Below are positions 2,638-61,593 of a stretch of 64,000 bases of DNA, piece by piece (position 1 is the first letter of the stretch; the number at the start of each line of letters is the position of its first letter). The DNA comes from Syntrophus sp. (in: bacteria) (lineage in GTDB: Bacteria > Desulfobacterota > Syntrophia > Syntrophales > UBA8958). Below the pieces are notes generated by a model that saw only the letters and a program-made list of their open reading frames with translations, was not told the origin of the DNA and searched no databases. The stretch spans positions 2,680 through 66,679 of the forward strand of contig JANXZC010000079.1 of assembly GCA_025355725.1 (NCBI GenBank), written 5' to 3'. The translations under genes were made by a program, and so were the position numbers.

Positions 2638-2728
2638 CGATATTCGGGAAAAGAAAGGGAAATATCAAGGAACATTCACTTGCCGTTTTTGAAAATTATA
2701 AAATTCGTAGAAGCTAAATTGACATAAA

Positions 2729-2956
2729 ATGATCGATCTCGGGTGCATCTGGGACATCTTCCGGAAACCAAAAGAACAGGGGACAGATTTTTTTTACCAA
2801 CAATTCCAAAAGGGGCAATTTCTAGTAGATGCAGGAATAGCAAGACGCCAGACAGCAGCAGAATATCTCAAGGAACTGGAGAGAATCGGGATTCTGAAAC
2901 CTCACAAAATAGGCAAGGAAACAGCCAGGCAGAAGGTCGAAAGGAGTTTCTCAACC
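2729..2956 (+). pseudogene. Remnant of the C-terminal winged-helix region of a Fic/DOC-family gene, read in frame into dinD
   Basis: The segment FLVDAGIARRQTAAEYLKELERIGILKPHKIGKE matches the conserved C-terminal HTH tail of Fic-family proteins. No Fic core (HxFxxGNGR) lies upstream, and a stop sits at 2720-2722. The real dinD start, with its own RBS, is at 2957. Confidence 0.45.
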
Positions 2957-3814
2957 ATGAGCAAGGGAATAGGGAAAACCACCGGGGGGCATACTTCGCC
3001 TTTCGAACGGATCAAACGTACGAACGATGCAGGGATGGAGTTTTGGTCAAGCCGTGAATTTGCCGGGGTACTGGGTTACGGCGACTATCGCAATTTTGAG
3101 GGGGTAATTGAGAAGGCCAAGTTGTCCTGTTTCAATAGTGGTTACCGTATCGAAGACCATTTCGTTGACGTCACCGAAATGGTCGCCATCGGTAGCGGCG
3201 CGGAACGACCTGTTAAAACCATCCTCCTGTCCCGCTATGCCTGCTATCTGGCTATTCAGAACGCCGATCCAAAAAAGGAGATTGTGGCGCATGGTCAAAC
3301 CTATTTTGCGATCCAGACGCGGCGGCAGGAATTGGCGGACGGACGCATTGAGGATGAGCGGAGGGTTCTGCTGCGCGAAGAGATGCGCCGCCATAATGTT
3401 CAATTGGCCAACGCGGCCAAAGGTGCCGGCGTTATCGAACCCATAGACTACGCCATCTTTCAGAATCATGGGTATATGGGGCTTTACGGCGGGATGAAAC
3501 AGGATGACATTCACCAGCGGAAAGGCTTGAAAAAGAGCCAGAAGATTCTGGATTACATGGGCAGCACGGAACTGGCGGCGAACCTGTTTCGCGCGACCCA
3601 GGCGGAGGAGAAGTTGCGCCGGGACGAGGTGAAGGGAAAAGACGCCGCAAACCGGACGCATCGTGAAGTCGGCGCGAAGGTACGGCAAACCATTAGGGAA
3701 CTGGGCGGCACGATGCCCGAAGAATTGCCGGCGCTGGAAAGCATCAAGAAGATCGAAACCCGGCAGCGCAAGCGACTCGGCAAGGCTGAGACGCCCGAAA
3801 AAAAGAAAAGTTAG
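2957..3814 (+). CDS. dinD: DNA-damage-inducible protein D (DinD, Bro-N family)
   Basis: Long near-identical blocks to E. coli DinD as I remember it: LSRYACYLAIQNADP, GQTYFAIQTRRQELAD, AIFQNHGYMGLYGG, IHQRKGLKKSQKILDYMGSTELAANLFRATQAEEKL, VRQTIRELGGTMPEELP. ATG at 2957 follows AAGGAG (2941-2946). Confidence 0.9.
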   Translation: MSKGIGKTTGGHTSPFERIKRTNDAGMEFWSSREFAGVLGYGDYRNFEGVIEKAKLSCFNSGYRIEDHFVDVTEMVAIGSGAERPVKTILLSRYACYLAIQNADPKKEIVAHGQTYFAIQTRRQELADGRIEDERRVLLREEMRRHNVQLANAAKGAGVIEPIDYAIFQNHGYMGLYGGMKQDDIHQRKGLKKSQKILDYMGSTELAANLFRATQAEEKLRRDEVKGKDAANRTHREVGAKVRQTIRELGGTMPEELPALESIKKIETRQRKRLGKAETPEKKKS

Positions 3815-5024: not shown

Positions 5025-5456
5025 CTATTTCCAGTAGGTGTTCCAAAGCGGTCGGGCAATGCCGTTTTCGTAAGTCATCTCCGAGAGGACGCCGTCCGGT
5101 GTGAGGATGAATACGGCGGCGTCATAACGGAGGAGATTGCCCGTGGCATCCAGCTTGGGGGACGCCTTCAGGACATCACTCATGGGTACGGAGAGGGAGA
5201 GCTGGCCCCCCCGATAAAAAGAACGCTGATAATGGAGGGCGAAATGACCTTTCATGTCAACGATGTCGGAAGGGGCGCCGTAGGAGGCGAGGATGTCTGC
5301 GAGGGTGGTCTTGCCGACGGCAAATTCCTGGGGCAAGGGTTTCACTTCCGCACCGTCGGTGACCTTGTCGATGCGCAGGGAAAGACAGCCCCCGAGGATC
5401 AGGGAGGCAACAAGCAGGACCGCTACCCCAAGGTGGCGCTTAGAACGGCGTCCCAT
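5025..5456 (-). CDS. Small lipoprotein, BamE/SmpA_OmlA-like, paralog of the upstream gene
   Basis: Signal peptide with lipobox LILGGC. The block GKTTLADILASYGAPSDIV aligns with GQTTAAELTKMFGPPSQIV of the neighbour. The start is taken at the internal Met (MGRRSKRHLG); the track ORF extends to 5489. Confidence 0.6.
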   Translation of the reverse strand: MGRRSKRHLGVAVLLVASLILGGCLSLRIDKVTDGAEVKPLPQEFAVGKTTLADILASYGAPSDIVDMKGHFALHYQRSFYRGGQLSLSVPMSDVLKASPKLDATGNLLRYDAAVFILTPDGVLSEMTYENGIARPLWNTYWK

Positions 5457-5817
5457 AAGCGGCCGTGTCGGTTTTGAAGCTGCTGCCATAGTGGGTCACC
5501 ACGTCGTTTTTGTTGATAAAAAAGACCAGGCGATCATGCTGGATGTCATAATTGGCAAAGGTTACCAGCACCAGCCAGACGCCCGTGGCCTTGCTCAGGG
5601 TCCGGTCGTACACATAAGCGTTACCGTTGGCCAGCTTGACAATCTGGCTGGGGGGGCCGAACATTTTGGTGAGCTCCGCGGCGGTGGTCTGGCCGGGTTT
5701 TACCTGGGTGAGGACCTGCTCGTCGAAGGGCCGGAAATCCTTGTTCCGCCCGAAGACCGCACATCCCGACAGGAACGTGATGATCACAATCCCCAAGATG
5801 ATGGTTCTGAATTGCAT
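5440..5817 (-). CDS. Small lipoprotein, BamE/SmpA_OmlA-like
   Basis: MQFRTIILGIVIITFLSGC carries the lipobox FLSGC. ATG at 5817 follows AAGGAG; the track ORF extends to 5841. Confidence 0.6.
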   Translation of the reverse strand: MQFRTIILGIVIITFLSGCAVFGRNKDFRPFDEQVLTQVKPGQTTAAELTKMFGPPSQIVKLANGNAYVYDRTLSKATGVWLVLVTFANYDIQHDRLVFFINKNDVVTHYGSSFKTDTAAYGTPF

Positions 5818-5880
5818 ATCCCTTTTCTCCTTCCTCTTCAATGGAACTGACGCTTTTTCGAAACGGCGGTTGATGCCTTG

Positions 5881-5909
5881 TCTATAGAGGGGATAAACCC
5901 TCCTGTCAA
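5881..5909 (-). promoter_or_regulatory. Candidate sigma-70 promoter for the lipoprotein pair
   Basis: The minus strand reads TTGACA-N17-TATAGA (TTGACAggagggtttatcccctcTATAGA). It sits between the ligase stop (5949) and the lipoprotein start. Confidence 0.4.
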
Positions 5910-5948
5910 GAAATTCAAAATTACCCGGCGGAGATTGCCGCGTTCCAT

Positions 5949-7487
5949 TCAGGCCGGGTCCAGCCGCTTTTTCAAGATCCGTTTCAGGACCTTCCCCGCC
6001 TGGTTCCGGGGAAAGGCATCGACGAAGATGATCTTCCGGGGGATTTTATAGGGGGCGATCTTGCCCTGCAAGGCCGTCAAGATTTCGCTTTCCGTGATCA
6101 CGGCCTCTTTTTGCAGGACAATGAAGGCCGCCACCGCTTCCTCCCGCTTGGGATCGGCCATGGCCACCACGGCCGCCTCGGCGATCTGGGGGAGGGCCTG
6201 GAGGGCCCTCTCCACCTCGACGGGATAGATGTTTTCCCCCGACGAAATGATCATCTCCACCTTGCGGCCGATGATGTAGACAAATCCTTCATCATCGCGC
6301 CGGCCCATGTCGCCGGTGTGAAACCAGCCCCCGGCCATGGCCGTATTTGTCGCCTCCTCCTTCCGCCAGTATCCCTGGAAGATATTCGGTCCCTGGACGA
6401 TGATCTCGCCCGCCTCGCCCGCGGGGATATCCCGGTCCTTTTCATCGACGATGCGCAAACGGACGTGAAAGACCTCTTTGCCGACGGAGCCGGCTTTGCG
6501 AATCGCTTCTTCGAGATCGAGGGACGTCAGGCGCCCGGTTTCCGTCAGGGCATAGCCCTGGACGAAACCGACGCCCTTTTCTTCCTGGTACTTCCGGATG
6601 ACGGGCAGCGGTATCGGCGCGCCGCCGGAGATGAAAAAATGGACGTGGGAGAGATCGGCGGCCGGCCAGTTCTCCGTTTCCGTCATTAACTGAAACATGA
6701 CGGGGACGGCGAACATGTAGTTGATCTTTTCCGCCTCGATCAGCTTGAGCGTCTCCGCGGCGCTATAGAAGGAACTGATCACGATGCTGCCGCCGGCGTA
6801 AACGATGGGCGTCACCGATGCTGCCAGGGCGCCGATATGAAAGAGGGGGGCCACCACCAGGGACTTGTAGGAACGGTCCACGCCATAGCCCAGGAGGGAA
6901 TGGATGGCCCCGAAGAGGACATTCCCGTGGGTCAGGACGGCTCCCTTGGGGTCTCCCGTCGTCCCGGCGGTGTACATGATGAAAAGAGGGTCTTGCAGAT
7001 CCACGTCGTTCGGGTCTGCAGGCTCTGACGCCGGGCAACGATCGACCCGCTCCTCAAACGGAGGATCATTGGGCGGAGGATTGTCGGGAAGGGAATCGCC
7101 TCCGTGGCGGAAATAATGGGTCAGGGCCAGGCCGGCCGCTTTCAATTCGCCCACTTTCGGGGCAAACTCGGCGTCATAGATCAAAATCCCGGGTTCGGCG
7201 TCCTTCATGATATACATGAGCTCCGGCGCGGCGAGGCGGAAATTCAGGGGTGTTACGACCACTCCCAGCTTGGCGCAGGCGAAGAATATTTCCAGAAACT
7301 CGCTGCGGTTGGACATGAGCAGGGCCACCCGGTCGCCTTTGGCGACACCGCAACCTTTCAGGGCATGGGCCGTTCGGTTCACCCGCTCGTTGAACTCCCG
7401 GTTGGTGAAGATGCGGTCCTTATCTTTCAGGAAGTTATTTTCCGGGCGGACGATGGCCCGCTTTTGGATCCATTCGCCGATGTTCAA
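5949..7487 (-). CDS. ANL-superfamily adenylating enzyme (acyl/aryl-CoA or -ACP ligase)
   Basis: AMP-binding motifs YTAGTTGDPKG, GYALTETG, FHTGDMG, GRKVEMIISSGENIYPVEVE and PRNQAGKVLKR. The TTG start overlaps the upstream stop as TTGA. Confidence 0.85.
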   Translation of the reverse strand: MNIGEWIQKRAIVRPENNFLKDKDRIFTNREFNERVNRTAHALKGCGVAKGDRVALLMSNRSEFLEIFFACAKLGVVVTPLNFRLAAPELMYIMKDAEPGILIYDAEFAPKVGELKAAGLALTHYFRHGGDSLPDNPPPNDPPFEERVDRCPASEPADPNDVDLQDPLFIMYTAGTTGDPKGAVLTHGNVLFGAIHSLLGYGVDRSYKSLVVAPLFHIGALAASVTPIVYAGGSIVISSFYSAAETLKLIEAEKINYMFAVPVMFQLMTETENWPAADLSHVHFFISGGAPIPLPVIRKYQEEKGVGFVQGYALTETGRLTSLDLEEAIRKAGSVGKEVFHVRLRIVDEKDRDIPAGEAGEIIVQGPNIFQGYWRKEEATNTAMAGGWFHTGDMGRRDDEGFVYIIGRKVEMIISSGENIYPVEVERALQALPQIAEAAVVAMADPKREEAVAAFIVLQKEAVITESEILTALQGKIAPYKIPRKIIFVDAFPRNQAGKVLKRILKKRLDPA

Positions 7488-8758
7488 TGTTCTTCCTCCT
7501 CTTCTTGGGAATGTGAAAAGACAAGGTAAACGTAGGTCCCGCCGAAGGAGATGCCGGCGAGGAGGGCATGCTCAATGGGCAGCGCCTTCGTTTTACCCTT
7601 GACGAAAGCAAGGGCGCTCAGGGGCTCCGCAAGCCCGACCGTCGGGGGGAGTGCCCCCTTTTCCAGGGACAGGGCCAGGGCGCAGGCCCGCATGCCCCCT
7701 CCGGAGAAACTCTCCCCGAGGGCGCCCTTCAGCGACGTGATGGCAGGACCGTTTTTGTCCTTGACGCCGGCAAAGATATCGGCATAGGCCGCCGCCTCCA
7801 CGGCATCCAGGATCAGGCCGCCGTTTGCCGCCGCCGAGACGGCCTGAATATCTTCGGGGCCAATGCCCGCATTGTCAAGGGCGCGCCGGATTGTCCGCTT
7901 GATGCCCGCCGGATCGGTGGGCCACTGGGTCGGCGGCGTCGGCGACGACCCCATGCCCATGCCGGTTAATTCACAATAGGGCTTCCGCCCTCTGGCCCTG
8001 GCCGACTCCCGGCTTTCCAGGCAGAGGATGCCGCAGCCTTCCCCGACGACCATGCCGTTGCGGTCCCGATCAAAGGGATGGCAGGCCTCCGTTTTTCCGT
8101 TCCCCGGAGAAAGGGCATAAAACCGGCTGAGGGCCTCAAAATAGAAGGGGGAGATGATGTCTGCGCCCCCGGTGAGGATGTAATCGGCGGCGCCGCGCCG
8201 GATTTCGGCGATGCCGTAGGCCAGGGCTGCCTCGGCGGAAACGGCGAAGTGGGTGACGGTGACGTTGACGCCGCGAAAACCCAGCTCGATGGAGGCGTTC
8301 CCCGCCGCCGCGTTCAGGACCGTGTTCGGCACCAGGATGGGGTTGACGAAGGAAGGACCCTCCTTAATCAGTGTTTCTGCCAGGTGGACGGTGACATCCG
8401 TGGCGCCGAAGGCCGTCCCCATCAGGATGCCGATGCGGTCGCGGTTGGCCAAATTAACTGCAATGCCCGCGTCTTCCAGGGCCAGACGCGCTGCCGCCGT
8501 CGTCAGTTGGGAGATCCGGTCCATCCGGCGCAGGTTTTTAAGGGAAATGAAATCGCGGGGCGAGAAATCGGTCACCTCCGCCCCCAGGTGGGAGGGAAAA
8601 TTATCGGTCGGAAACGATTTTATGTCGGAAATGGCACTCTCCCCCGAAAAAAGCCTGCTTCCAAAGGCCTCCTTGCCGACACCCAGCGGGGTCGCCATCC
8701 CGATGCCGGTCACGACGACCCGCCCGGAGTCTTCGGGGTGGGGACGATGGTTACCCAT
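7484..8758 (-). CDS. Ketosynthase-like protein lacking the Cys-His-His triad (chain-length-factor-like partner)
   Basis: KAS I/II fold is evident (VVVTGIGMATPLG, HPFDRDRNGMVVGEG). The catalytic positions read THFAVSA (Cys to Phe171), SAAANGG (His to Ala) and LKGALGESF (His to Glu). The C-terminus is SHSQEEEEEH. The start overlaps the upstream KS stop by 8 nt (ATGGGTAA). Confidence 0.8.
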   Translation of the reverse strand: MGNHRPHPEDSGRVVVTGIGMATPLGVGKEAFGSRLFSGESAISDIKSFPTDNFPSHLGAEVTDFSPRDFISLKNLRRMDRISQLTTAAARLALEDAGIAVNLANRDRIGILMGTAFGATDVTVHLAETLIKEGPSFVNPILVPNTVLNAAAGNASIELGFRGVNVTVTHFAVSAEAALAYGIAEIRRGAADYILTGGADIISPFYFEALSRFYALSPGNGKTEACHPFDRDRNGMVVGEGCGILCLESRESARARGRKPYCELTGMGMGSSPTPPTQWPTDPAGIKRTIRRALDNAGIGPEDIQAVSAAANGGLILDAVEAAAYADIFAGVKDKNGPAITSLKGALGESFSGGGMRACALALSLEKGALPPTVGLAEPLSALAFVKGKTKALPIEHALLAGISFGGTYVYLVFSHSQEEEEEH

Positions 8759-10103
8759 GGTCGGCGCTCCCGTTGGGGTATTTCCCGAAGATCACCGTGG
8801 TGTTGTTACCCCCGAAGGCGAAGGAGTTGGAGAGGACCGCCCTGAGTGCCGCCGGTCGCGCCCCTTCGGTGATGTAATCGAGGTCGCAGCGGGGATCAGG
8901 ATCGCGGTAATTAATGGTGGGCGGCATAAATCCGTGGGCCAGGGCCAAAAGGGAGACAATCCCTTCCAGGGCTCCGGAGGCGCCCAGGGTATGGGCCGTC
9001 ATCGACTTGGTCGAACTGACCGGAACGGCGTAGGCGCGCCTGCCGAAGACTTCCCTGATCGCCATGGATTCCATGGCATCGTTGACCGCTGTCGCCGTGC
9101 CGTGGGCATTGATGTAGTCGATATCCTCCGGTCCGAGACCGCTGTCTTTCAGGGCTGCCTCCATGGAGCGAATGGCGCCGGAGGCCTGTTCGTCGGGAGA
9201 GGTCATGTGATGGGCGTCGCAGGTGACGCCGTAACCCAGGATCTCCCCGTAAATCCTAGCGCCCCGTGCGAGAGCTCCATCCAGTGGTTCCAGGACCATG
9301 ACGGCTGCCGCCTCGCCCAGGGAAAGGCCGCCGCGGTGGCGGTCAAAAGGCCGGCAGACATCCGGATCGAGGGATTTCAGGGCATTGAAGGAGGAGTAGG
9401 TGATCCGGCACATGGGTTCCGTACCACCGGCGAGCATAATTGACGCCTGGCCGTTGCAGATGAGGTCACGGCCGTAGCCCAGGACGGTCGCCCCGGATGA
9501 ACAGGCGGTCATCAAGGTTATTTTGGGGCCGAGGAGGCCCAAAAAAGTGGCGATGCGATCGGTGGAAGAGGCGCAATAGACGGAGGAAAGGCGGGAAAAA
9601 TGTGCCTTGCCGTTTCCTTTTTGCAGCAGGTCGCTATAGAAGCTCTCCCCCTCCAGCAGCCCCCCCGAGCCGCCGCCGATGGCCACGCCCATGTCTTCTT
9701 TCATCGCTTCCGGGAGGGGGTAGAGACCGGCATCCCGGAGGGCCTCCAGGGTGGCGGCAAAGGCGAGGAGATCGGCCCGGGACATTCTTTTCAGCGGAAA
9801 TTCCTCGGGTATGAAGGAGCGGGGGAGAAAATTCCGGATCTGGCCGCCCTTTCGGCAGCGGTATCCCGTCGTATCGAAGAGGTCTATCTCCCCGATGCCG
9901 CAGCTCCCTTCCCCAAGGGCGCGGACGAATTCGGGAATATTATTTGCGATCGCGTTTATGGTGCCCATACCGGTGACGACAATACGTTTTTTCTTGTGCA
10001 CAGCCGACCATTCCTCTGAAGTCGCGAGATTTTTATGATCGAACTTAAATGGGGTCAGGCGAAAAGTCAAACGATTATCGTTTTTTGAAAAGCCATTGCC
10101 CAA
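8751..10103 (-). CDS. Beta-ketoacyl synthase (KAS II/FabF-like), catalytically intact
   Basis: Active-site Cys in TACSSGA and the two His in INAHGTAT and KSMTAHTLGASG. A more likely start is the GTG at 10001 (VHKKKRIVVTGMG), preceded by GAGGA. Confidence 0.85.
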   Translation of the reverse strand: MGNGFSKNDNRLTFRLTPFKFDHKNLATSEEWSAVHKKKRIVVTGMGTINAIANNIPEFVRALGEGSCGIGEIDLFDTTGYRCRKGGQIRNFLPRSFIPEEFPLKRMSRADLLAFAATLEALRDAGLYPLPEAMKEDMGVAIGGGSGGLLEGESFYSDLLQKGNGKAHFSRLSSVYCASSTDRIATFLGLLGPKITLMTACSSGATVLGYGRDLICNGQASIMLAGGTEPMCRITYSSFNALKSLDPDVCRPFDRHRGGLSLGEAAAVMVLEPLDGALARGARIYGEILGYGVTCDAHHMTSPDEQASGAIRSMEAALKDSGLGPEDIDYINAHGTATAVNDAMESMAIREVFGRRAYAVPVSSTKSMTAHTLGASGALEGIVSLLALAHGFMPPTINYRDPDPRCDLDYITEGARPAALRAVLSNSFAFGGNNTTVIFGKYPNGSADHG

Positions 10104-21524: not shown

Positions 21525-21938
21525 GTGATTATTTATGATCTGCGCTGTGATCATGGGCACAAATATGAGGGCTGGTTTCAGGATCGACAGGCCTTTGAAA
21601 CTCAGCGGTCCCGCAAATTGATCACCTGTCCCGTGTGCGGAAGTATGGAGACGGAAATTGTTCCCGCCTCTATTACGCTGCTGGGAAAGGATAAGGGACC
21701 GGTAAAACGTAACGATGTGGAAATCTCCCCCCTGAAATATCTGGAGCAGTTGCATCAGCAGATCGACAAATATTTTGACGATGTCGGTGAACAGTTCGCG
21801 GAAGTTGCGATCAGGATCCATCGCGGGGAGGAAGATCAACGCAACATCCGTGGCATCACGACGGAAAGGGAGGAGGACACCCTCCGTGAGGAAGGGGTGC
21901 CCTTTGTTAAAATTCCTGTTCCCAAATTTGACAGTTGA
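21525..21938 (+). CDS. DUF1178-family zinc-ribbon protein
   Basis: MIIYDLRCDHGHKYEGWFQDRQAFETQRSRKLITCPVCGS matches the DUF1178 N-terminal signature as I recall it. GTG start. Confidence 0.65.
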   Translation: MIIYDLRCDHGHKYEGWFQDRQAFETQRSRKLITCPVCGSMETEIVPASITLLGKDKGPVKRNDVEISPLKYLEQLHQQIDKYFDDVGEQFAEVAIRIHRGEEDQRNIRGITTEREEDTLREEGVPFVKIPVPKFDS

Positions 21939-22012
21939 CAGCGTCGCGAAAAGTCCGTCCGGCGGTCAAAGTTGACGGACCGGCAAAAAGTTAACCAAGG
22001 TGAATTATATAA

Positions 22013-24322
22013 ATGAAGCCCTCCTGCGCCAGCATTCTTGATACAATCGGTAATACGCCTCTGGTGGAGATCTGCCGCCTTCACAGCAATCCGGGGGTCA
22101 AGGTCTTTGCCAAGATGGAGTGTTTTAATCCCGGGGGTTCTATAAAGGACCGGGCGGCCCTGACTATGATCAACGGTGCCGAAAAGCGAGGAGAACTTAC
22201 CAGGGACAAGGTTATCCTGGAAGCGACCAGCGGCAATACCGGCATAGGTTTGGCACTGGTCGCTGCAGCCAGGGGATACCGGCTTTGTCTGACCATGTCG
22301 GAGGCGGCCAGCGAAGAAAGAAAGAAGATTCTGAAGGCCATGGGCGCGGAATTGTTTTTTACCCCCGCCAATCTTGGCACCGACGGGGCCATCGAGACTG
22401 CCTATAATATGATGCGGGAGGATCCGGATAAATACTTCGGAACGGATCAGTTCAACAACCCCGACAACATCCTGGCCCACTATGAGGGTACAGGGGAAGA
22501 AATATGGCAGCAAACGGAAGGGAAGGTGTCCATGGTGGTGACAGCCCTGGGGACGACGGGTACGGCTATGGGCATATCCCGGCGCCTCAAGGAATACAAC
22601 CCCGCCGTCAAGATCATCGGCGTCGAGCCCTATCTCCAACACAAGATCCAGGGTCTCAAGAATATGAAGGAATCTTATCGGCCCGGGATCTTTGACAAGG
22701 ATTGCCTCGATGAAAAGGTCAACATCCTCGACGAGGACGCCTTTGAAATGTCCCGGCGCCTCGCCCGGGAAGAGGGCTTATTCGTGGGGATGAGTTCCGG
22801 CGCGGCCATGCATGTCGCCCTCCAGAAGGCCAAAGATCTGGACGAAGGAATCATCGTGGTCATCTTTCCGGACAGCGGCGAACGGTATCTCAGCACGGAC
22901 CTGTTTGCGGACCGGCGGGAAACGACGCTTCGCCTCTACAATACCCTGAGTCGGCAGAAGGACTTCTTCAAACCCCTGCGCCCCGAAGAGGTCCGTGTTT
23001 ATTCCTGTGGGCCCACCGTCCATGACGTGCCCCATATCGGCAGTTACCGGAGATTTGTTGTGTCCGATCTCCTGCGGAGGTACCTCGAATACCGGGGCTA
23101 TACGGTCAAGCATGTGACCAATATAGTTGATCTGGCAGATCGATCTATCCGGGGTGCGGAGCGGACCAACACGGATCTGGCCACGTACACGAACCGGTGT
23201 ACGGAGGCATTCCTCAGGGATATTGGAAAGTTGTGCATCAAGGGCGATGAGGTCTATCCCAAGGCAAGTGAGCACGTCGAGGATATGATCCGGATGGTCG
23301 AGAAACTGGTAGGCAAGGGATATGCCTATGAAAAGCTGCGTTCCGTCTATTTTGATATCTCAAAGTTTAATGACTACGGGAAGCTGTCCAACGTCGACCT
23401 CAGCAAGGTTCAACATGGCCGGACCATTGATCTGGATGATTACGAAAAGGACAGCCCTGTGGACTTTGCCCTGCTGAAACGCTCTAACCTAAGCGAGTTG
23501 AAGAAGGGCGTGTATTTCAAGACCCGCTGGGGGAACGTCCGGCCAAGCTGGCATCTGGAGTGCGCCGCCATCTCCATGAAATATCTGGGAGAGGCCTTTG
23601 ATATTCATGTCAGCGGCTCCGATATTACCTTTCCCCACTGCGAAAATGTCCTGGCCATCGGCAAGGCGGCGACGGGAAAGGGGATTGCCAACTATTGGCT
23701 TAGTACGGAACTGGTAATGATCGACGGCAAGAAAATGTCCCGTTCTCTGGGCAACGTCCTGACGATGGAAGACCTGGAAAATAGAGGCTACCAGGGCCGG
23801 GAGGTCCGTTTTTTCCTGCTCGGCTCCCACTACCGTAAACCCCTGAATTTTTCCTGGGGGTCTATGGAAACGGCCAAAAATACGGTCAGAAAGCTGAATC
23901 ATTTCATCCAGCGCCTGATCCGTTTTACTCCCGGCGAGGGTTTCCCCGACACGGATCAGCTGATCTATGATGTGAAGCAGGGTTTCGCAAGCGCTCTTGA
24001 TGACGACCTCAATATCTCCGGCGCTCTTGCTTCTCTCTTCGACTTTATCAATAAGGTGAGCGTCCCCCTGGCCCGGGGTCATTTCAATCAAAGGGAAAGG
24101 GACCGCGTTCTGGAAGTGATGACGGGGCTGGACAGTGTTCTGGGAATCATGCATTTTGAAGAAGAAACGATTGGTATCGAGGTACTGAAATTGTTGGACG
24201 AACGAGCCGCTATGCGGAAAGAACAGCGCTGGCAGGAGGCCGATGCCGTCCGGGAAAAACTCGCGGCCCTGGGCATCGATGTCTATGACACCCCGCAGGG
24301 CAGTTTCTGGAGACATGACTGA
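22013..24322 (+). CDS. Fusion protein: cysteine synthase (CysK/CysM, PLP fold type II) + cysteinyl-tRNA synthetase paralog
   Basis: Residues 1 to about 303 carry GGSIKDR (PLP lysine), TSGNTG, GTTGT and SSGA. From about residue 304 (nt about 22922) there is a full CysRS: LYNTLSRQK, CGPTVHDVPHIGS, WHLEC, FPHCENV, KMSRSLGN and the C-terminal ...QRWQEADAVREKLAALGIDVYDTPQGSFWR. It is one uninterrupted ORF. Confidence 0.85.
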   Translation: MKPSCASILDTIGNTPLVEICRLHSNPGVKVFAKMECFNPGGSIKDRAALTMINGAEKRGELTRDKVILEATSGNTGIGLALVAAARGYRLCLTMSEAASEERKKILKAMGAELFFTPANLGTDGAIETAYNMMREDPDKYFGTDQFNNPDNILAHYEGTGEEIWQQTEGKVSMVVTALGTTGTAMGISRRLKEYNPAVKIIGVEPYLQHKIQGLKNMKESYRPGIFDKDCLDEKVNILDEDAFEMSRRLAREEGLFVGMSSGAAMHVALQKAKDLDEGIIVVIFPDSGERYLSTDLFADRRETTLRLYNTLSRQKDFFKPLRPEEVRVYSCGPTVHDVPHIGSYRRFVVSDLLRRYLEYRGYTVKHVTNIVDLADRSIRGAERTNTDLATYTNRCTEAFLRDIGKLCIKGDEVYPKASEHVEDMIRMVEKLVGKGYAYEKLRSVYFDISKFNDYGKLSNVDLSKVQHGRTIDLDDYEKDSPVDFALLKRSNLSELKKGVYFKTRWGNVRPSWHLECAAISMKYLGEAFDIHVSGSDITFPHCENVLAIGKAATGKGIANYWLSTELVMIDGKKMSRSLGNVLTMEDLENRGYQGREVRFFLLGSHYRKPLNFSWGSMETAKNTVRKLNHFIQRLIRFTPGEGFPDTDQLIYDVKQGFASALDDDLNISGALASLFDFINKVSVPLARGHFNQRERDRVLEVMTGLDSVLGIMHFEEETIGIEVLKLLDERAAMRKEQRWQEADAVREKLAALGIDVYDTPQGSFWRHD

Positions 24323-24340
24323 GGTAAATGTAGACAAATG

Positions 24341-24369
24341 AATAAACAAATCAAATGTTTATTGTTTGG
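24341..24369 (+). terminator. Weak AT-rich hairpin, possible terminator
   Basis: AATAAACAaatcaaaTGTTTATTgtttgg: an 8-bp AT stem with only a short, interrupted T run. Confidence 0.3.
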
Positions 24370-24418
24370 CGTTTCTGATTATGACCCGTGGGTATGAATG
24401 GATGATGCTAAAAAGTGC

Positions 24419-24447
24419 TTGACAAAATAAATCAATAAATCTAAAGT
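24419..24447 (+). promoter_or_regulatory. Sigma-70 promoter candidate for the tRNA-rpmG-secE-nusG unit
   Basis: TTGACA (24419-24424), a 17-nt spacer, then TAAAGT (24442-24447). AT-rich UP-like sequence lies upstream, about 80 nt before the first tRNA. Confidence 0.5.
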
Positions 24448-24529
24448 CCCCAATTCGCATTTTCGGTGTGGTTTAGCCGAATGCGTCTTATTTACTTAAG
24501 CTCTTTGAATAATTAGCGAACTGCGTTTT

Positions 24530-36740: not shown

Positions 36741-37112
36741 ATGCCAACGATAAACCAGTTGGTCCGGAAGGGAAGGACCAAGATAGAGGGAAAGACGAAA
36801 ACACCGGCCCTTGCCGGCTCCCCGCAGCGTCGGGGAGTCTGTGTACGGGTCTATACATCGACGCCCAAAAAGCCGAACTCGGCGCTAAGAAAGGTGGCCA
36901 GAGTTCGCCTGACGAGTGGATACGAGGTAACTTCCTATATCCCGGGCGTGGGTCACAATCTTCAGGAGCACTCGGTGGTCCTGGTCCGGGGGGGCAGAGT
37001 CAAGGATCTTCCCGGAGTGCGCTATCACATTGTCCGTGGAACCCTTGATGCGGTAGGCGTTCAGGGCAGAAAACAGGGAAGATCCAAATACGGCGCCAAA
37101 AAGCCGAGCTAA
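36741..37112 (+). CDS. rpsL: 30S ribosomal protein S12
   Basis: [12 protein letters not shown]...[14 protein letters not shown]. Confidence 0.97.
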
Positions 37113-37128
37113 ACGGGGTTAGATCATC

Positions 37129-37599
37129 ATGCCGAGAAGACGAGAAGTAACAAAAAGGGAGATCATTCCGGATCCCAAGTATCATAACAAGATGGTGGCC
37201 CAGTTCGTCAACAATCTTCTGAAGCAGGGAAAGAAAAGTACCGCTGAGTCGATTCTCTATGGAGCCCTTGATCTTATTGAAAAAAGGATCAAAGAATCCC
37301 CCGTGGATGTTTTTGAAAAGGCATTGAATAATGTGAAACCGGTGATTGAGGTCAAATCGAGAAGAGTCGGCGGATCTACTTACCAGGTTCCCACCGAGGT
37401 CCAACCATCACGACGGGTTGCCCTGGCTATCCGCTGGTTGATTACCCATGCTAAAGAGCGGACGGATAAGACGATGAGGGAAAAACTGGCAGCGGAGCTA
37501 ATCGATGCGGCCAACAATAGAGGGGCGGCTATTAAGAAGCGGGAAGCCGTTCATAAAATGGCGGAGGCCAACAAGGCATTTGCCCACTATCGGTTTTGA
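37129..37599 (+). CDS. rpsG: 30S ribosomal protein S7
   Basis: [18 protein letters not shown]...AHYRF. Confidence 0.97.
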
Positions 37600-37691
37600 T
37601 GCAGGGTTTAATTTTAATATAGGATAGTCCAAGAGCAAAGGGTCGTAAACATATAAGATATTTTTTCAAAAGACGAAGGAGGTAAGTAGAG

Positions 37692-38885
37692 ATGGCTAAG
37701 AAGAAATATGAAAGGACAAAGCCGCATATGAATATCGGTACCATTGGTCACGTGGATCATGGTAAAACGACATTGACGGCAGCAATTACCAAGCACTTGT
37801 CCAAGAAAGGCTTCGCCGAGTTCAGGCCCTTTGACTCCATCGATAATGCACCGGAGGAGAAGGAAAGAGGAGTTACCATCAATATCTGCCATGTGGAGTA
37901 TCAGACAGACAAAAGGCATTATGCCCATGTTGACTGCCCTGGTCACGCCGATTATATAAAAAATATGATTACCGGCGCCGCCCACATGGATGGAGCCATC
38001 CTTGTCGTGGCCGCCTCCGATGGTCCGATGCCTCAAACCAGAGAACACATTCTCCTTGCCAGACAGGTCCAGGTCCCCTATGTGGTTATCTATATGAATA
38101 AAGTGGATCTTGTCGATGATCCGGAGCTTCTCGACCTGGTGGAGCTGGAACTGCGGGACCTTCTGAAAGACTACCAGTTCCCGGGAGACGAGACTCCCAT
38201 CATCCGCGGGTCGGCGCTTAAGGCGCTGGAGACGGATGATTCTGCTTCGGAAGACGCCAAATCCATTTGGGAACTTATGGATGCCGTTGATAGCTATATT
38301 CCCGAACCTACGCGTGTTCTGGATAAACCCTTCCTGATGCCTATCGGTGATGTTTTCAGCATCTCCGGTCGTGGGACAGTAGTAACGGGCAGAATAGACA
38401 GAGGAATCGTCAAAACGGGAGAGGAAGTGGAAATCGTCGGGATTCGGCCGACCTTCAAGACCGTGTGCACCGGTGTGGAAATGTTTCGCAAGACCCTAGA
38501 CGAGGGCCGGGCGGGCGACGATGTCGGTGTTCTGCTCAGAGGAACTAAAAGGGACGAAGTCGAAAGAGGTCAGGTTGTGGCGAAGCCCGGTTCCATAACC
38601 CCCCACACTAAATTCAAGGCCCAAGTTTACATTCTGACTAAGGAGGAAGGTGGTCGTCATACGCCGTTCTTTTCAGGTTACCGGCCCCAGTTTTATTTCC
38701 GGACGACGGATGTGACCGGTGTGGCCGTACTGCCCGAGGGCGTGGAAATGGTTATGCCCGGCGATAATATCGAGATGGAAATCGCTCTGATTACACCTAT
38801 CGCCATGGAGGAACAGCTGCGATTTGCAATTCGCGAGGGTGGACGAACTGTTGGCTCCGGTGTTGTCAGCAAGATAATAGAATAA
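37692..38885 (+). CDS. tuf: Elongation factor Tu
   Basis: [18 protein letters not shown] and NKVD motifs, 397 aa. Confidence 0.97.
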
Positions 38886-60111: not shown

Positions 60112-61593
60112 ATGGCACTGCGAGTTTATAATACCCTCACAAGGCAAAAAGAGGCATTCCAGCCTATCGAACCCGGAAAGATCGGCATCTACGCCTGCGG
60201 GATTACGGTCTATGATCTCTGCCATATAGGTCACGCCCGTTCGGCGATCGTCTTTGATGTCATCAGCAAGTATCTGCAATACCTCGGTTTTGAAGTTACC
60301 TTCATCAAGAATTTCACAGATGTTGACGATAAGATTATCGACCGTGCCCATGCGGAAGGGTGTGACATCAAGGGTATTACTGAAAAATATATTGAGGCTC
60401 ACAATCGGGACATGGATGCCCTGGGTGTGGCCAGGCCCACCATCGCACCCCGGGCAACGGAGAATATTGAAGGTATGATCCGGCTGATCACAACCCTTTT
60501 TGAAAAGGGGCTAGCCTATGATGCTGATGGCGATGTATATTACGCCGTCGAGAAATTTAAGGGATACGGAAAATTATCGGGGAGAAACCTGGAAGACATG
60601 CTGGCCGGCGCCCGCGTCGACATAAACGAAAAAAAACGCAATCCCATGGATTTTGCCCTCTGGAAAGCAAGCAAGGAGGGGGAGCCCTGGTGGGACAGCC
60701 CCTGGGGAAAGGGCCGTCCGGGGTGGCATATCGAGTGTTCCGTCATGAGTCAGCGTTATCTGGGCGATACTTTCGATATCCATGGCGGGGGCGAAGATCT
60801 CATTTTTCCTCATCATGAAAACGAGATTGCCCAGTCTGAGGGGGCTACGGGCAAACCACTGGCCCGATACTGGCTACACAACGGCTTTGTCCGGGTGAAC
60901 AGCGAAAAGATGTCCAAGTCCCTGGGTAATTTCTCTACCATCCAGGACATGCTCCTTAGCTACCATCCCGAGGTGCTGAGGCTTTTTGTCCTCCAGAGCC
61001 ACTACCGCAGTCCCGTGGACTTTTCTGAGGGATCGCTGCGTGACGCCAGAACGGGAATGGACCGTTTCTATACCGCCCTCAAAACCATGAAGGACACTCT
61101 TGCCAGCCACGGGGGGGCTATCAATGAGGGGAAAGATCCCTTGACGGAAGAACACCGTCAGGTTTTTGAAAAGATCATGACCCTTCCCGAACGCTTTGCC
61201 GAGGCCATGGAAGATGATTTTAACACGGCCAAAGCGATCGGACACCTATATGACGCTGTTCGTATTCTCAACAGTTTCATGGCGGAGTGGAAAAACAAAC
61301 CGGCCTCCGAGACGGTCTATGTCCTTGTCCGGTCCCGGGAAATCCTGCTGCGCACCGGCGCCGTCCTGGGGTTGTTTCTTGATGACCCGGATCATTATTT
61401 CGATGCCGACAGGAACCGGGAAGTACGTAAAAAAGGTCTGAATGTCGAGGAAATCGAAGGTCTCGTAGAAGCGCGCCGTCTGGCCAGGGCTCAGAAGGAC
61501 TGGAAGAAGGCTGATGAGATCCGACAGGCCCTTGTGGAAAAAAGGGTTAGTCTCAAAGATACATCCGACCGGACTGTATGGAAAATCGAATAA
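60112..61593 (+). CDS. cysS: Cysteinyl-tRNA synthetase (canonical)
   Basis: CGITVYDLCHIGH (HIGH), GWHIEC, FPHHENEIAQS, KMSKSLGN and the C-terminal anticodon-binding region. Confidence 0.95.
   Translation: MALRVYNTLTRQKEAFQPIEPGKIGIYACGITVYDLCHIGHARSAIVFDVISKYLQYLGFEVTFIKNFTDVDDKIIDRAHAEGCDIKGITEKYIEAHNRDMDALGVARPTIAPRATENIEGMIRLITTLFEKGLAYDADGDVYYAVEKFKGYGKLSGRNLEDMLAGARVDINEKKRNPMDFALWKASKEGEPWWDSPWGKGRPGWHIECSVMSQRYLGDTFDIHGGGEDLIFPHHENEIAQSEGATGKPLARYWLHNGFVRVNSEKMSKSLGNFSTIQDMLLSYHPEVLRLFVLQSHYRSPVDFSEGSLRDARTGMDRFYTALKTMKDTLASHGGAINEGKDPLTEEHRQVFEKIMTLPERFAEAMEDDFNTAKAIGHLYDAVRILNSFMAEWKNKPASETVYVLVRSREILLRTGAVLGLFLDDPDHYFDADRNREVRKKGLNVEEIEGLVEARRLARAQKDWKKADEIRQALVEKRVSLKDTSDRTVWKIE

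What the first reader, a model, noticed from the sequence alone, without database searches (positions are those of the whole stretch)
22013..24322. Single-ORF fusion of cysteine synthase to a motif-divergent cysteinyl-tRNA synthetase, alongside a canonical cysS
What the sequence shows:
- A complete CysK/CysM-type domain (GGSIKDR, TSGNTG, GTTGT, SSGA) runs into a complete CysRS with no stop and essentially no linker (...YLSTDLFADRRETTLRLYNTLSRQK...).
- That CysRS retains the C-terminal anticodon-binding-like tail.
- A second, standard CysRS is at 60112-61593.
- In the fused copy the class I signatures differ: HIGH becomes HIGS and KMSKS becomes KMSRS.
- The zinc-site segment FPHHENE becomes FPHCENV.

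Established knowledge, from my recollection of E. coli CysRS: the cysteine-selecting zinc is held by Cys28, Cys209, His234 and Glu238. By alignment the fusion keeps the first three, replaces Glu238 with Val and gains a Cys at position 235. CysRS paralogs are also known to be recruited for non-tRNA cysteine ligation, for example MshC in mycothiol synthesis.

Inference: the fusion may channel newly made cysteine directly into activation, a one-polypeptide analogue of tRNA-linked cysteine supply. Alternatively it is a repurposed cysteine ligase. I cannot say from memory how widespread this architecture is.
Basis: partly seen in the sequence, partly recalled or inferred. Interest (0 to 1): 0.65.

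Follow-up and report, generated by a model that had tools for sequence, protein, structure and literature searches.

The report
Cysteine synthase fused to CysRS paralog
A real, strongly conserved gene in Syntrophus-type bacteria joins the enzyme that makes cysteine to a remodelled second copy of the enzyme that loads cysteine onto tRNA; it belongs to a large, uncharacterised family of such pairs, and in many sulfate reducers the tRNA-enzyme half has lost its catalytic site but kept its tRNA-binding residues.

Summary
ORF 22013..24322 (769 aa) is a CysM-type cysteine synthase joined to a full-length CysRS-like enzyme, and a canonical cysS lies at 60112..61593.

- **Not an artefact.** More than 120 full-length orthologues exist, including in the complete Syntrophus aciditrophicus genome. 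They sit in conserved synteny, and dN/dS is 0.05-0.10 in every part.
- **HIGS is unremarkable.** 76 of 95 canonical CysRS representatives have HIGN.
- **The real divergence.** Six positions that are invariant in canonical CysRS are replaced and fixed in this family: T68V/I, G204S, H235C, E238V, Q241I and K269R. The zinc ligands C28, C209 and H234, the residue W205, both ATP motifs and the anticodon-domain residues are kept.
- **A wider module.** The CysM and CysRS-like pair is either fused or encoded by adjacent genes 2-4 nt apart. Both halves form their own clades. In Desulfovibrionales the CysRS half has lost its catalytic motifs but keeps the CP domain and anticodon-domain residues.
- **Best reading (about 0.5).** The protein is a bifunctional cysteine synthase and tRNA-Cys-directed CysRS paralogue with a remodelled metal site.
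- **Main rival.** The synthetase half acts as a HisZ/GCN2-like sensor.

I found no literature on this architecture.

The parts
22013..24322 (+). Whole fusion gene (769 aa plus stop): CysM-type cysteine synthase joined to a CysRS paralogue
   Evidence: ORF. Pfam and NCBIfam domains. More than 120 full-length orthologues. dN/dS 0.05-0.10.
22037..22873 (+). PALP (CysM-like) domain, residues 9-287. PLP lysine K45 (22145-22147), TSGNTG (22226-22243), GTTGT (22550-22564), SSGA (22793-22804). K216 aligns with R210 of E. coli CysM.
   Evidence: PALP E 1e-71. Best solved relative is E. coli CysM 2bhs, E 5e-78. The motifs are invariant in 121 sequences. Foldseek TM 0.93 to 2bhs.
22889..22927 (+). Junction, residues 293-305 (LSTDLFADRRETT): end of CysM, a short linker, then the start of CysRS
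   Evidence: AlphaFold pLDDT below 50 for residues 293-303. In the split relatives a stop codon and a new start sit exactly here, 2-4 nt apart.
22928..23887 (+). CysRS-like catalytic (Rossmann) domain, residues 306-625. Kept: C332 (C28), HIGS 23033-23044, WHLEC 23549-23563 (W205, C209), FPHCENV 23630-23650 (H234 kept; H235C, E238V), KMSRS 23732-23746. Also changed: V372 (T68), S512 (G204), I549 (Q241).
   Evidence: tRNA-synt_1e E 7e-89. Alignment to 1LI5. Site-by-site comparison with 95 canonical representatives and 121 family members.
23306..23551 (+). CP (connective polypeptide) insertion, residues 432-513. It carries the clade signature AYEKLRSVYFD ... DF.LLKR..L.ELK.G...T.WG.VRPSW, with a 4-residue insertion relative to canonical CysRS.
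   Evidence: 23 of the 33 positions shared and derived between the Syntrophales family and the catalytically dead Desulfovibrionales clade fall in residues 440-518.
23888..24157 (+). Helical bundle / DALR_2 domain, residues 626-715
   Evidence: DALR_2 hit at 658-712. All-helical in the model.
24158..24322 (+). C-terminal alpha/beta anticodon-binding domain (CysS_C), residues 716-769, plus the stop codon
   Evidence: CysS_C hit. The residues aligning with E. coli R423, R427, W432, D436, R439, G446, D451, G455 and W458 are invariant in the family.
60112..61593 (+). Canonical housekeeping cysS (493 aa), which co-occurs with the fusion
   Evidence: TIGR00435 566 bits. Orthologues across Syntrophales. 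Found on the same contig as the fusion in another genome.
21525..21938 (+). DUF1178 zinc-ribbon gene, a conserved upstream neighbour that is probably co-transcribed in Syntrophales
   Evidence: Synteny. The gap is only about 18-20 nt in five related loci.

Best explanation
The gene encodes a two-enzyme protein, the Syntrophales form of an old CysM plus CysRS-like module.

**N-terminal half (shown by sequence; activity inferred).** This is a PLP-dependent CysM-type sulfhydrylase. It should make cysteine from O-acetyl- or O-phosphoserine and sulfide.

**C-terminal half.** This is a second CysRS, additional to the housekeeping cysS 38 kb away.
- It keeps the ATP motifs (HIG[S/N], KMSRS).
- It keeps three of the four zinc ligands and the tryptophan that packs on the substrate thiol.
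- It keeps a complete anticodon-binding domain.
- I infer that it still binds zinc, cysteine, ATP and tRNA-Cys, and most likely forms Cys-AMP and Cys-tRNA-Cys.

**Remodelled active site.** The site is altered in a fixed way: E238V, H235C, T68V/I, Q241I, K269R and G204S. The metal is therefore probably held by Cys-Cys-His, possibly with the new Cys (inferred), and the kinetics or exact substrate may differ from the housekeeping enzyme.

**Physical coupling.** The tether to CysM is short, and CysM enzymes are normally dimers. This links cysteine supply to tRNA-Cys charging, either by proximity or by mutual regulation (inferred, not shown).
For: - **Both halves match their families.** Both pass the curated family thresholds. 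The model superposes on CysRS (1u0b, 8qhp; TM 0.85-0.90) and on CysM (2bhs; TM 0.93).
- **Catalytic residues are invariant in 121 sequences:** PLP Lys45, TSGNTG, C332, H341, G343, W513, H514, C517, H542, N545, K574 and S578.
- **These residues drift when unneeded.** In the Desulfovibrionales relatives the same catalytic residues are lost. Their invariance here therefore implies that they are used.
- **Anticodon-domain residues are invariant,** although that domain averages only 46% identity across the family.
- **Strong purifying selection.** dN/dS is 0.05-0.10 in the PALP, catalytic and C-terminal parts.
- **More conserved than the housekeeping copy.** The fusion is more conserved than the canonical CysRS between the same genome pairs: 78 vs 72% and 74 vs 66%.
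- **Rosetta-stone evidence.** Relatives carry the two halves as adjacent genes 2 and 4 nt apart. PALP and CysRS-like trees each group the fused and split forms together.
- **K269R need not block charging.** A review reports that the KMSK lysines of E. coli CysRS are not needed for aminoacylation (PMC12926118).
Against: - Six positions that are invariant in 94-95 of 95 canonical CysRS representatives are replaced. These include a zinc ligand (E238). From my recollection of the E. coli structure, they also include the Thr that hydrogen-bonds the substrate alpha-amino group (T68).
- A housekeeping CysRS is present, so charging by the fusion is not required for translation.
- Whole branches of the same family have a dead synthetase half yet keep the fusion. 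The selected role of the partnership therefore need not be aminoacylation.
- AlphaFold does not predict a fixed interface that would support channelling.
- No tRNA-Cys gene or other partner lies next to any member.
- No biochemical data were found.
Confidence: 0.5

Rival explanations
1. Regulatory pseudo-synthetase. The CysRS-like half does not charge tRNA. Instead it senses cysteine, ATP and/or uncharged tRNA-Cys and tunes the attached CysM. HisZ (a HisRS paralogue) regulates HisG in this way, and the HisRS-like domain of GCN2 senses uncharged tRNA in this way.
For: - In Desulfovibrionales the same module has lost C28, HIGH, C209 and KMSKS, while PALP is unchanged: tRNA-synt_1e falls to 63-88 bits and PALP stays at 250-263 bits.
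- That dead clade still conserves the CP domain and the anticodon-domain residues aligning with R423, R427, D436, R439, G446, D451 and G455.
- A housekeeping CysRS co-occurs with the fusion.
- Canonically invariant catalytic-site residues are altered in the window's protein.
Against: In the window's clade both ATP motifs and the Cys-Cys-His metal triad are invariant. A pure sensor would not obviously need them, and they decay in the clade where catalysis is clearly gone. No regulatory data exist.
Confidence: 0.22
2. Altered-substrate activation. The CysM half makes a cysteine relative, for example cysteine persulfide, S-sulfocysteine or selenocysteine. The remodelled metal pocket of the synthetase half then activates that compound. 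This would be a dedicated persulfide or 'supersulfide' route, or a non-canonical charging route.
For: - The fixed changes cluster around the metal and substrate pocket: T68V/I, H235C, E238V, Q241I, Y33H.
- CysM enzymes accept larger sulfur nucleophiles (established for E. coli CysM with thiosulfate; from my own knowledge).
- Two of the four lysines reported as PLP sites for the persulfide-synthase activity of E. coli CysRS (K73, K269) are Arg here, while a true PLP domain is attached.
Against: This is purely inferential. No sequence feature identifies the nucleophile. The split and 56%-identity relatives keep T68 and E238, so the pocket change is specific to Syntrophales and does not define the module.
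Confidence: 0.1
3. tRNA-independent cysteine ligase of the MshC type. The synthetase half adenylates cysteine and transfers it to an amine acceptor to build a low-molecular-weight thiol or cofactor.
For: It is a CysRS paralogue present beside a housekeeping copy, and its active site is altered. The MshC NCBIfam model gives a partial hit of 192 bits, far below its cut-off of 485.
Against: - The full DALR and CysS_C anticodon-binding domains are kept with all their conserved residues. MshC chains are about 410 aa and the match to them stops at query residue 379 of 469.
- It passes the cysS equivalog cut-off but not the MshC one.
- No glycosyltransferase, deacetylase or other thiol-pathway gene is a neighbour in any lineage.
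Confidence: 0.06
4. Assembly, frameshift or decaying-pseudogene artefact.
For: None found.
Against: The same ORF is found in a finished genome, in 13 species-level genomes and in more than 120 clusters. dN/dS is 0.05-0.10 in every part.
Confidence: 0.01

Closest known systems
Bacterial cysteinyl-tRNA synthetase (E. coli CysS; PDB 1LI5, 1U0B; TIGR00435)
   Same: - Same domain order: Rossmann fold with CP insertion, helical bundle, then C-terminal alpha/beta domain.
- C28, C209, H234, W205, H37, G39, K266 and S270 are kept.
- The anticodon-domain residues are kept.
- It scores above the cysS equivalog cut-off.
   Different: - It is fused to CysM.
- T68, G204, H235, E238, Q241 and K269, which are invariant in canonical enzymes, are all replaced.
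- The CP domain carries a clade-specific signature and a 4-residue insertion.
- It is a second copy beside the housekeeping enzyme.
Cysteine synthase B, CysM (E. coli; PDB 2BHS; TIGR01138 / TIGR01136)
   Same: - All PLP-fold motifs are present and a basic residue sits at the R210 position.
- The E-value to 2bhs is 5e-78, with about 46% identity in the structural alignment.
- It passes the cysKM subfamily cut-off.
   Different: - It falls below the cysM equivalog cut-off (369.5 vs 394.2 bits).
- Its PALP domain belongs to a separate clade made only of CysRS-associated forms.
- Its C-terminus runs straight into the synthetase.
HisZ-HisG and the HisRS-like domain of GCN2 (aaRS paralogues recruited to regulate or sense the cognate amino-acid supply; from my own knowledge)
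   Same: An aaRS-derived module is physically coupled to the pathway of its own amino acid. In the Desulfovibrionales branch the synthetase half is catalytically degenerate but retained.
   Different: - The family is different (class I CysRS rather than class II HisRS).
- The link is covalent and attaches to the last enzyme of the pathway rather than the first.
- The window's member still looks catalytically competent.
- No regulation has been demonstrated.
SepRS / SepCysS tRNA-dependent cysteine synthesis (PMC5424206)
   Same: It couples cysteine formation with tRNA-Cys in one system. A PLP enzyme and a tRNA-Cys-binding synthetase work together.
   Different: - The PLP fold differs (type II CysM rather than type I SepCysS), and the synthetase differs (class I CysRS-like rather than class II SepRS).
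- There is no evidence that the CysM half acts on a tRNA-bound substrate.
- That survey did not report SepRS in these bacterial lineages.
MshC (mycothiol cysteine ligase; PDB 3C8Z)
   Same: It is a CysRS paralogue that co-exists with the housekeeping enzyme, and cysteine adenylation happens at a zinc site.
   Different: MshC lacks the anticodon-binding domain, whereas the fusion keeps it intact.

Membership tests
Cysteinyl-tRNA synthetase (class Ia, TIGR00435 / PF01406) | Score above the curated equivalog cut-off, over the full length | tested here: met
   397.3 bits against a cut-off of 340, covering residues 306-768 and model positions 1-465 of 466.
Cysteinyl-tRNA synthetase (class Ia, TIGR00435 / PF01406) | Class I ATP signatures HIGH and KMSKS | tested here: inconclusive
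   HIGS is within the normal range (HIGN in 76 of 95 canonical representatives). KMSRS replaces a Lys that is invariant in 95 of 95. One review states that this Lys is dispensable for aminoacylation in E. coli CysRS.
Cysteinyl-tRNA synthetase (class Ia, TIGR00435 / PF01406) | Four-ligand zinc site: C28, C209, H234, E238 | tested here: not met
   C28, C209 and H234 are kept. E238 is Val in 117 of 121 family members (Ile or Leu in the rest), whereas it is Glu in 95 of 95 canonical enzymes. The neighbouring H235 is Cys in 121 of 121.
Cysteinyl-tRNA synthetase (class Ia, TIGR00435 / PF01406) | Anticodon-binding helical bundle plus C-terminal alpha/beta domain with its conserved Arg and Asp residues | tested here: met
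   DALR_2 and CysS_C hits. The equivalents of R423, R427, D436, R439, G446, D451 and G455 are invariant.
Cysteinyl-tRNA synthetase (class Ia, TIGR00435 / PF01406) | Charges tRNA-Cys with cysteine | not testable with these tools
   Requires ATP-PPi exchange and aminoacylation assays.
Cysteine synthase CysK/CysM (PF00291; TIGR01136) | PLP-binding Lys, Asn loop TSGNTG, Gly-rich phosphate loop and SSGA | tested here: met
   All four are present and invariant in 121 sequences. The cysKM subfamily scores 365.7 bits against a cut-off of 344.
Cysteine synthase CysK/CysM (PF00291; TIGR01136) | CysM equivalog score | tested here: not met
   369.5 bits against a cut-off of 394.2 (TIGR01138), and 346.5 against 413 (NF008735). 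The domain is CysM-like but forms a separate clade.
Cysteine synthase CysK/CysM (PF00291; TIGR01136) | Sulfhydrylase activity and choice of substrate (O-acetylserine or O-phosphoserine; sulfide, thiosulfate or thiocarboxylate) | not testable with these tools
   Only the basic residue K216 at the E. coli CysM R210 position could be noted. The window holds no cysE.
MshC-type cysteine ligase (TIGR03447) | Equivalog score, and absence of the anticodon-binding domain | tested here: not met
   191.8 bits against a cut-off of 485.1. The anticodon-binding domain is present.
HisZ/GCN2-like regulatory pseudo-synthetase (functional class, not a homologous family) | Loss of the catalytic motifs while the ligand- or tRNA-binding parts are retained | tested here: not met
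   Not met for the window's protein, whose motifs are kept. Met for its Desulfovibrionales relatives.

The most novel reading that the evidence does not exclude
The conserved core of this family is a tRNA-Cys-binding module (CP domain plus anticodon domain) tethered to a CysM enzyme. Adenylation chemistry is optional. Under this reading the module couples cysteine synthesis to the state of tRNA-Cys in one of two ways. Either uncharged or charged tRNA-Cys allosterically controls CysM, which would be a bacterial class I counterpart of HisZ or GCN2. Or the CysM active site works on, or hands its product directly to, the tRNA-bound acceptor end, which would be a CysM-based analogue of SepCysS. The window's protein would be the form that still retains catalysis.
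Probability: 0.2. Interest if true: 0.85.

Novelty: new variant of a known kind. Interest (0 to 1): 0.62.

Why it matters
- **A new type of coupling.** If the coupling is real, this would be, as far as my searches show, the first case in which a bacterial cysteine-biosynthetic enzyme is hard-wired to a tRNA-Cys-binding synthetase module.
- **A natural evolutionary series.** The family runs from split genes, to an active-looking fusion, to a catalytically dead fusion. That series shows how an aminoacyl-tRNA synthetase paralogue can turn into a non-catalytic partner.
- **Annotation errors.** Syntrophales genomes carry two genes annotated 'cysteine--tRNA ligase'. Many Desulfovibrionales 'cysteine synthases' of about 770 aa carry an unrecognised pseudo-CysRS half.
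- **A natural experiment on the zinc site.** The fixed changes E238V and H235C bear on how CysRS selects cysteine without an editing domain.
- **Ecological relevance.** The organisms involved are syntrophs and sulfate reducers, which are central to anaerobic carbon and sulfur cycling.

Tried and rejected
- **Literature.** Ten full-text searches covered cysteine synthase plus CysRS fusion, PALP architecture, Syntrophus, Desulfovibrio and the active-site residues. None found a description of this architecture. The E. coli CysRS structure paper is not held, so the roles of T68 and H235 rest on my memory.
- **Gene neighbourhood.** No conserved functional partner appears across lineages. The only recurring neighbours are DUF1178 in Syntrophales, a divergent MptE-like gene in Desulfovibrionales, and one ThiF gene after a split pair.
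- **tRNA-Cys genes.** None lies beside any member.
- **Regulatory RNA.** No T-box, riboswitch or other Rfam element lies upstream. Promoter and terminator scans were at chance level. The hairpin upstream of the start codon is not conserved.
- **Structure prediction.** AlphaFold gave good domains but no confident inter-domain geometry (pTM 0.63), so it cannot support or refute channelling. Coordinates and PAE are not returned. Foldseek found no solved chain that covers both halves.
- **Relaxed selection on the anticodon domain.** I tested this idea and rejected it. Canonical orthologues show a similar domain-wise identity profile, and the key residues are invariant.
- **HIGS as evidence of divergence.** Rejected.
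- **Whole-genome checks.** I could not check for cysE, cysK or SepRS. Only loci can be fetched, not whole genomes.
- **Tree quality.** The trees are neighbour-joining without bootstrap support.
Full report
**1. The observation**

The window holds one uninterrupted ORF at 22013..24322 on the + strand. It is 769 aa long and starts at an ATG preceded by AAGGTG.
- Pfam finds a complete PALP domain (residues 9-287, E 1e-71). This is followed by the CysRS catalytic domain (319-622, E 7e-89), DALR_2 (658-712) and the CysRS C-terminal anticodon-binding domain (724-767).
- NCBIfam places the C-terminal 463 residues above the cysS equivalog cut-off (397 vs 340 bits). It places the N-terminal 300 residues above the cysKM subfamily cut-off (366 vs 344) but below the CysM equivalog cut-off (369.5 vs 394.2).
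- Alignment to the E. coli CysRS sequence of PDB 1LI5 confirms the zinc-site mapping. C28, C209 and H234 are kept, H235 is Cys and E238 is Val.
- A canonical 493-aa CysRS lies at 60112..61593 (566 bits).

**2. Not an artefact**
- The protein has more than 120 full-length relatives at 69-96% identity. They include the proteins of the finished Syntrophus aciditrophicus SB chromosome and of S. gentianae.
- A scan of one genome per species found the intact ORF in 13 Syntrophales or 'Deltaproteobacteria' genomes at 74-99% identity. The nearest are a Syntrophales MAG (99%) and Syntrophus sp. UBA8958 (98%).
- The gene order yicC-gmk-rpoZ-pyrF-spoU-pilC-tRNAPro-DUF1178-fusion-tRNAs-secE-nusG-rplK is shared with S. 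aciditrophicus.
- Against four close relatives (dS 0.1-0.5), dN/dS is 0.05-0.10 for the PALP part, the catalytic part and the helical plus C-terminal part alike.
- The canonical cysS co-occurs. One JGI contig carries both genes 43 kb apart in the same local contexts. Another 146-kb MAG contig also appears to carry both, judged from matching contig lengths.
- Between the same genome pairs the fusion is more conserved than the housekeeping enzyme: 78 vs 72% and 74 vs 66%.

**3. What is and is not divergent in the synthetase half**

I compared 121 family members with 95 canonical CysRS representatives. The representatives are 50%-identity cluster representatives, chosen without reference to motifs.
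- The fourth residue of HIGH is Asn in 76 of 95 canonical enzymes, so HIGS (Ser 76, Asn 40 in the family) means nothing.
- Six positions that are invariant in canonical enzymes are replaced and fixed in the family. T68, G204, H235, E238 and K269 are invariant in 95 of 95, and Q241 in 94 of 95.

| Canonical residue | State in the fusion family |
|---|---|
| T68 | I or V (V372 in the window) |
| G204 | S |
| H235 | C |
| E238 | V |
| Q241 | I |
| K269 | R |

- Y33H and K73R are also near-fixed.
- Kept and invariant are C28, G29, H37, G39, D69, D72, W205, H206, E208, C209, D229, H234, N237, K266 and S270.
- The site therefore looks remodelled, not decayed. A zinc carboxylate ligand is lost, a thiol is gained next to the His ligand, and the pocket becomes more hydrophobic.
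- From my recollection of Newberry et al. 2002, T68 hydrogen-bonds the substrate amino group and H235 is one of five histidines around the zinc. I could not re-read that paper.
- A review states that the KMSK and KIIK lysines of E. coli CysRS are needed for its persulfide-synthase side activity but not for aminoacylation (PMC12926118). K269R therefore does not by itself argue against charging.

**4. The tRNA-binding parts**
- The C-terminal domain averages only 46% identity within the family. The domain-wise identity profile of canonical orthologues is broadly similar.
- The residues aligning with E. coli R423, R427, W432, D436, R439, G446, D451, G455 and W458 are nevertheless invariant.
- These are the positions that are also conserved across canonical CysRS. 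From memory of the 1U0B complex, several of them read the GCA anticodon.

**5. The wider family**

A profile-free search of 1.8 billion cluster representatives, followed by motif and tree analysis, shows that the window's protein belongs to a CysM-associated CysRS-like clade that is distinct from canonical CysRS.
- **Other fusions.** One is a 56%-identity protein in a Desulfobacterales MAG that keeps T68 and E238.
- **Apparently 'solo' 468- and 484-aa proteins.** On inspection these are preceded by a PALP gene whose stop codon lies 2 or 4 nt from their start.
- **Fusions with a degenerate synthetase half.**
- **Two clades that match.** The PALP domains of the fused, split and degenerate forms make one clade, apart from E. 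coli CysM. The module therefore has a single origin and has been fused or split since.
- **An independent fusion.** A Nanoarchaeota fusion with fully canonical motifs nests among ordinary CysRS and ordinary CysM in both trees.
- **The degenerate type is common.** Proteins of 760-800 aa annotated 'cysteine synthase' occur in Desulfovibrio ferrophilus, Desulfocurvus, Desulfobaculum, Maridesulfovibrio, Humidesulfovibrio, Salidesulfovibrio, Desulfoplanes and Desulfocurvibacter.
- **A score gradient.** Across the series the PALP score stays at 238-263 bits. The tRNA-synt_1e score falls from 449 (canonical) to 390, 335, 299 (window), 216 and 88-63 bits.
- **What the degenerate clade loses and keeps.** C28, HIGH, C209 and KMSKS are gone. 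The CP insertion (window residues 432-513) and seven anticodon-domain residues remain at least 95% conserved.
- **Shared signature.** Of the 33 positions shared and derived between the Syntrophales and Desulfovibrionales clades, 23 lie in residues 440-518. They include a 4-residue insertion.

**6. Structure**
- AlphaFold2 with a 42-sequence alignment gives confident domains (mean pLDDT 82.6) but a pTM of only 0.63. The linker (293-303) is low-confidence, as is a CP loop (467-480).
- Foldseek matches CysRS (8qhp, 1u0b) and CysM or CysK (2bhs and others) separately. No solved chain spans both halves.

**7. Interpretation**

The conservation argument is comparative. Where the synthetase chemistry is evidently not needed (Desulfovibrionales), the ATP motifs and metal ligands drift. 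In Syntrophales they are invariant under strong purifying selection, so they are in use.
- Together with the intact anticodon domain, this makes a cysteine-activating, tRNA-Cys-directed enzyme the most likely reading for the window's protein (about 0.5). It would be coupled to a working CysM.
- The six fixed substitutions, the presence of a housekeeping CysRS and the existence of dead-type relatives keep a regulatory or sensing role open (about 0.22).
- Activation of an altered substrate is possible but has no direct support (about 0.1).
- An MshC-like ligase is unlikely, because the anticodon domain that MshC lacks is retained (about 0.06).

**8. Known or new**
- Databases hold hundreds of these proteins under the names 'cysteine--tRNA ligase' or 'cysteine synthase'.
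- Ten full-text searches found no paper that describes the architecture.
- Coupling an aaRS paralogue to the pathway of its own amino acid has precedents in HisZ-HisG, the HisRS-like domain of GCN2, AsnA and SepRS/SepCysS.
- I therefore rate this a new variant of a known kind. Its natural series from active-looking to dead forms makes the question directly testable.

**9. Limits**
- The trees are neighbour-joining without support values.
- The residue roles in E. coli CysRS are partly recalled from memory.
- Whole-genome content (cysE, cysK, SepRS, the tRNA-Cys set) could not be examined.
- No biochemical evidence exists for any member.

Noticed in passing
window 21525-21938 (+); L016, L018, L019, L022, L025 upstream of the match: A DUF1178 zinc-ribbon gene sits directly upstream of the fusion in every Syntrophales locus. 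The gap is only about 18-20 nt in five of them, which suggests co-transcription. In the window the gap is 74 nt and holds a hairpin (about 21953-21981) that is not conserved.
   Followed up: partly
L001 10457-11916; L033 3320-4310; window 24323-24529: S. aciditrophicus and a JGI contig carry Memo and AMMECR1 genes immediately after the fusion. The window lacks them, and tRNA-Thr follows 208 nt after the stop codon.
   Followed up: no
L012 6553-7293: A ThiF-family (E1-like) gene follows the split cysM-cysS' pair directly in one metagenomic locus. This hints at a link to sulfur-carrier chemistry, but it was seen only once.
   Followed up: no
L006, L035, L036 (about 5040-7860 in each): In three Desulfovibrionales loci the dead-type fusion is transcribed divergently from a 587-598 aa MptE-like gene. 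A PAP2 gene lies further upstream in all three, and a PMT_2 glycosyltransferase in two (L006, L036). Otherwise the fusion looks monocistronic.
   Followed up: partly
window 36741-38885: After rpsL (36741) and rpsG (37129) comes an ORF of EF-Tu size (397 aa, 37692-38885). No ORF of fusA size lies between them. These identities are judged from size and position only.
   Followed up: no
window 67-3814: An Eco57I/MmeI-type DNA methylase ORF (856 aa) is followed by an ORF with a SoFic-like C-terminal domain and a Bro-N domain. This may be a small mobile or defence island at the window's edge.
   Followed up: no
window 5949-10103 (-): An AMP-binding acyl ligase gene is followed by two tandem ketosynthase genes, which looks like a small lipid or polyketide-type cluster.
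   Followed up: no
L004 8001-10307 (Nanoarchaeota MAG, P0123): This is an independent PALP-CysRS fusion with fully canonical CysRS motifs. It nests among ordinary CysRS and ordinary CysM in both trees, so the same architecture arose at least twice.
   Followed up: partly
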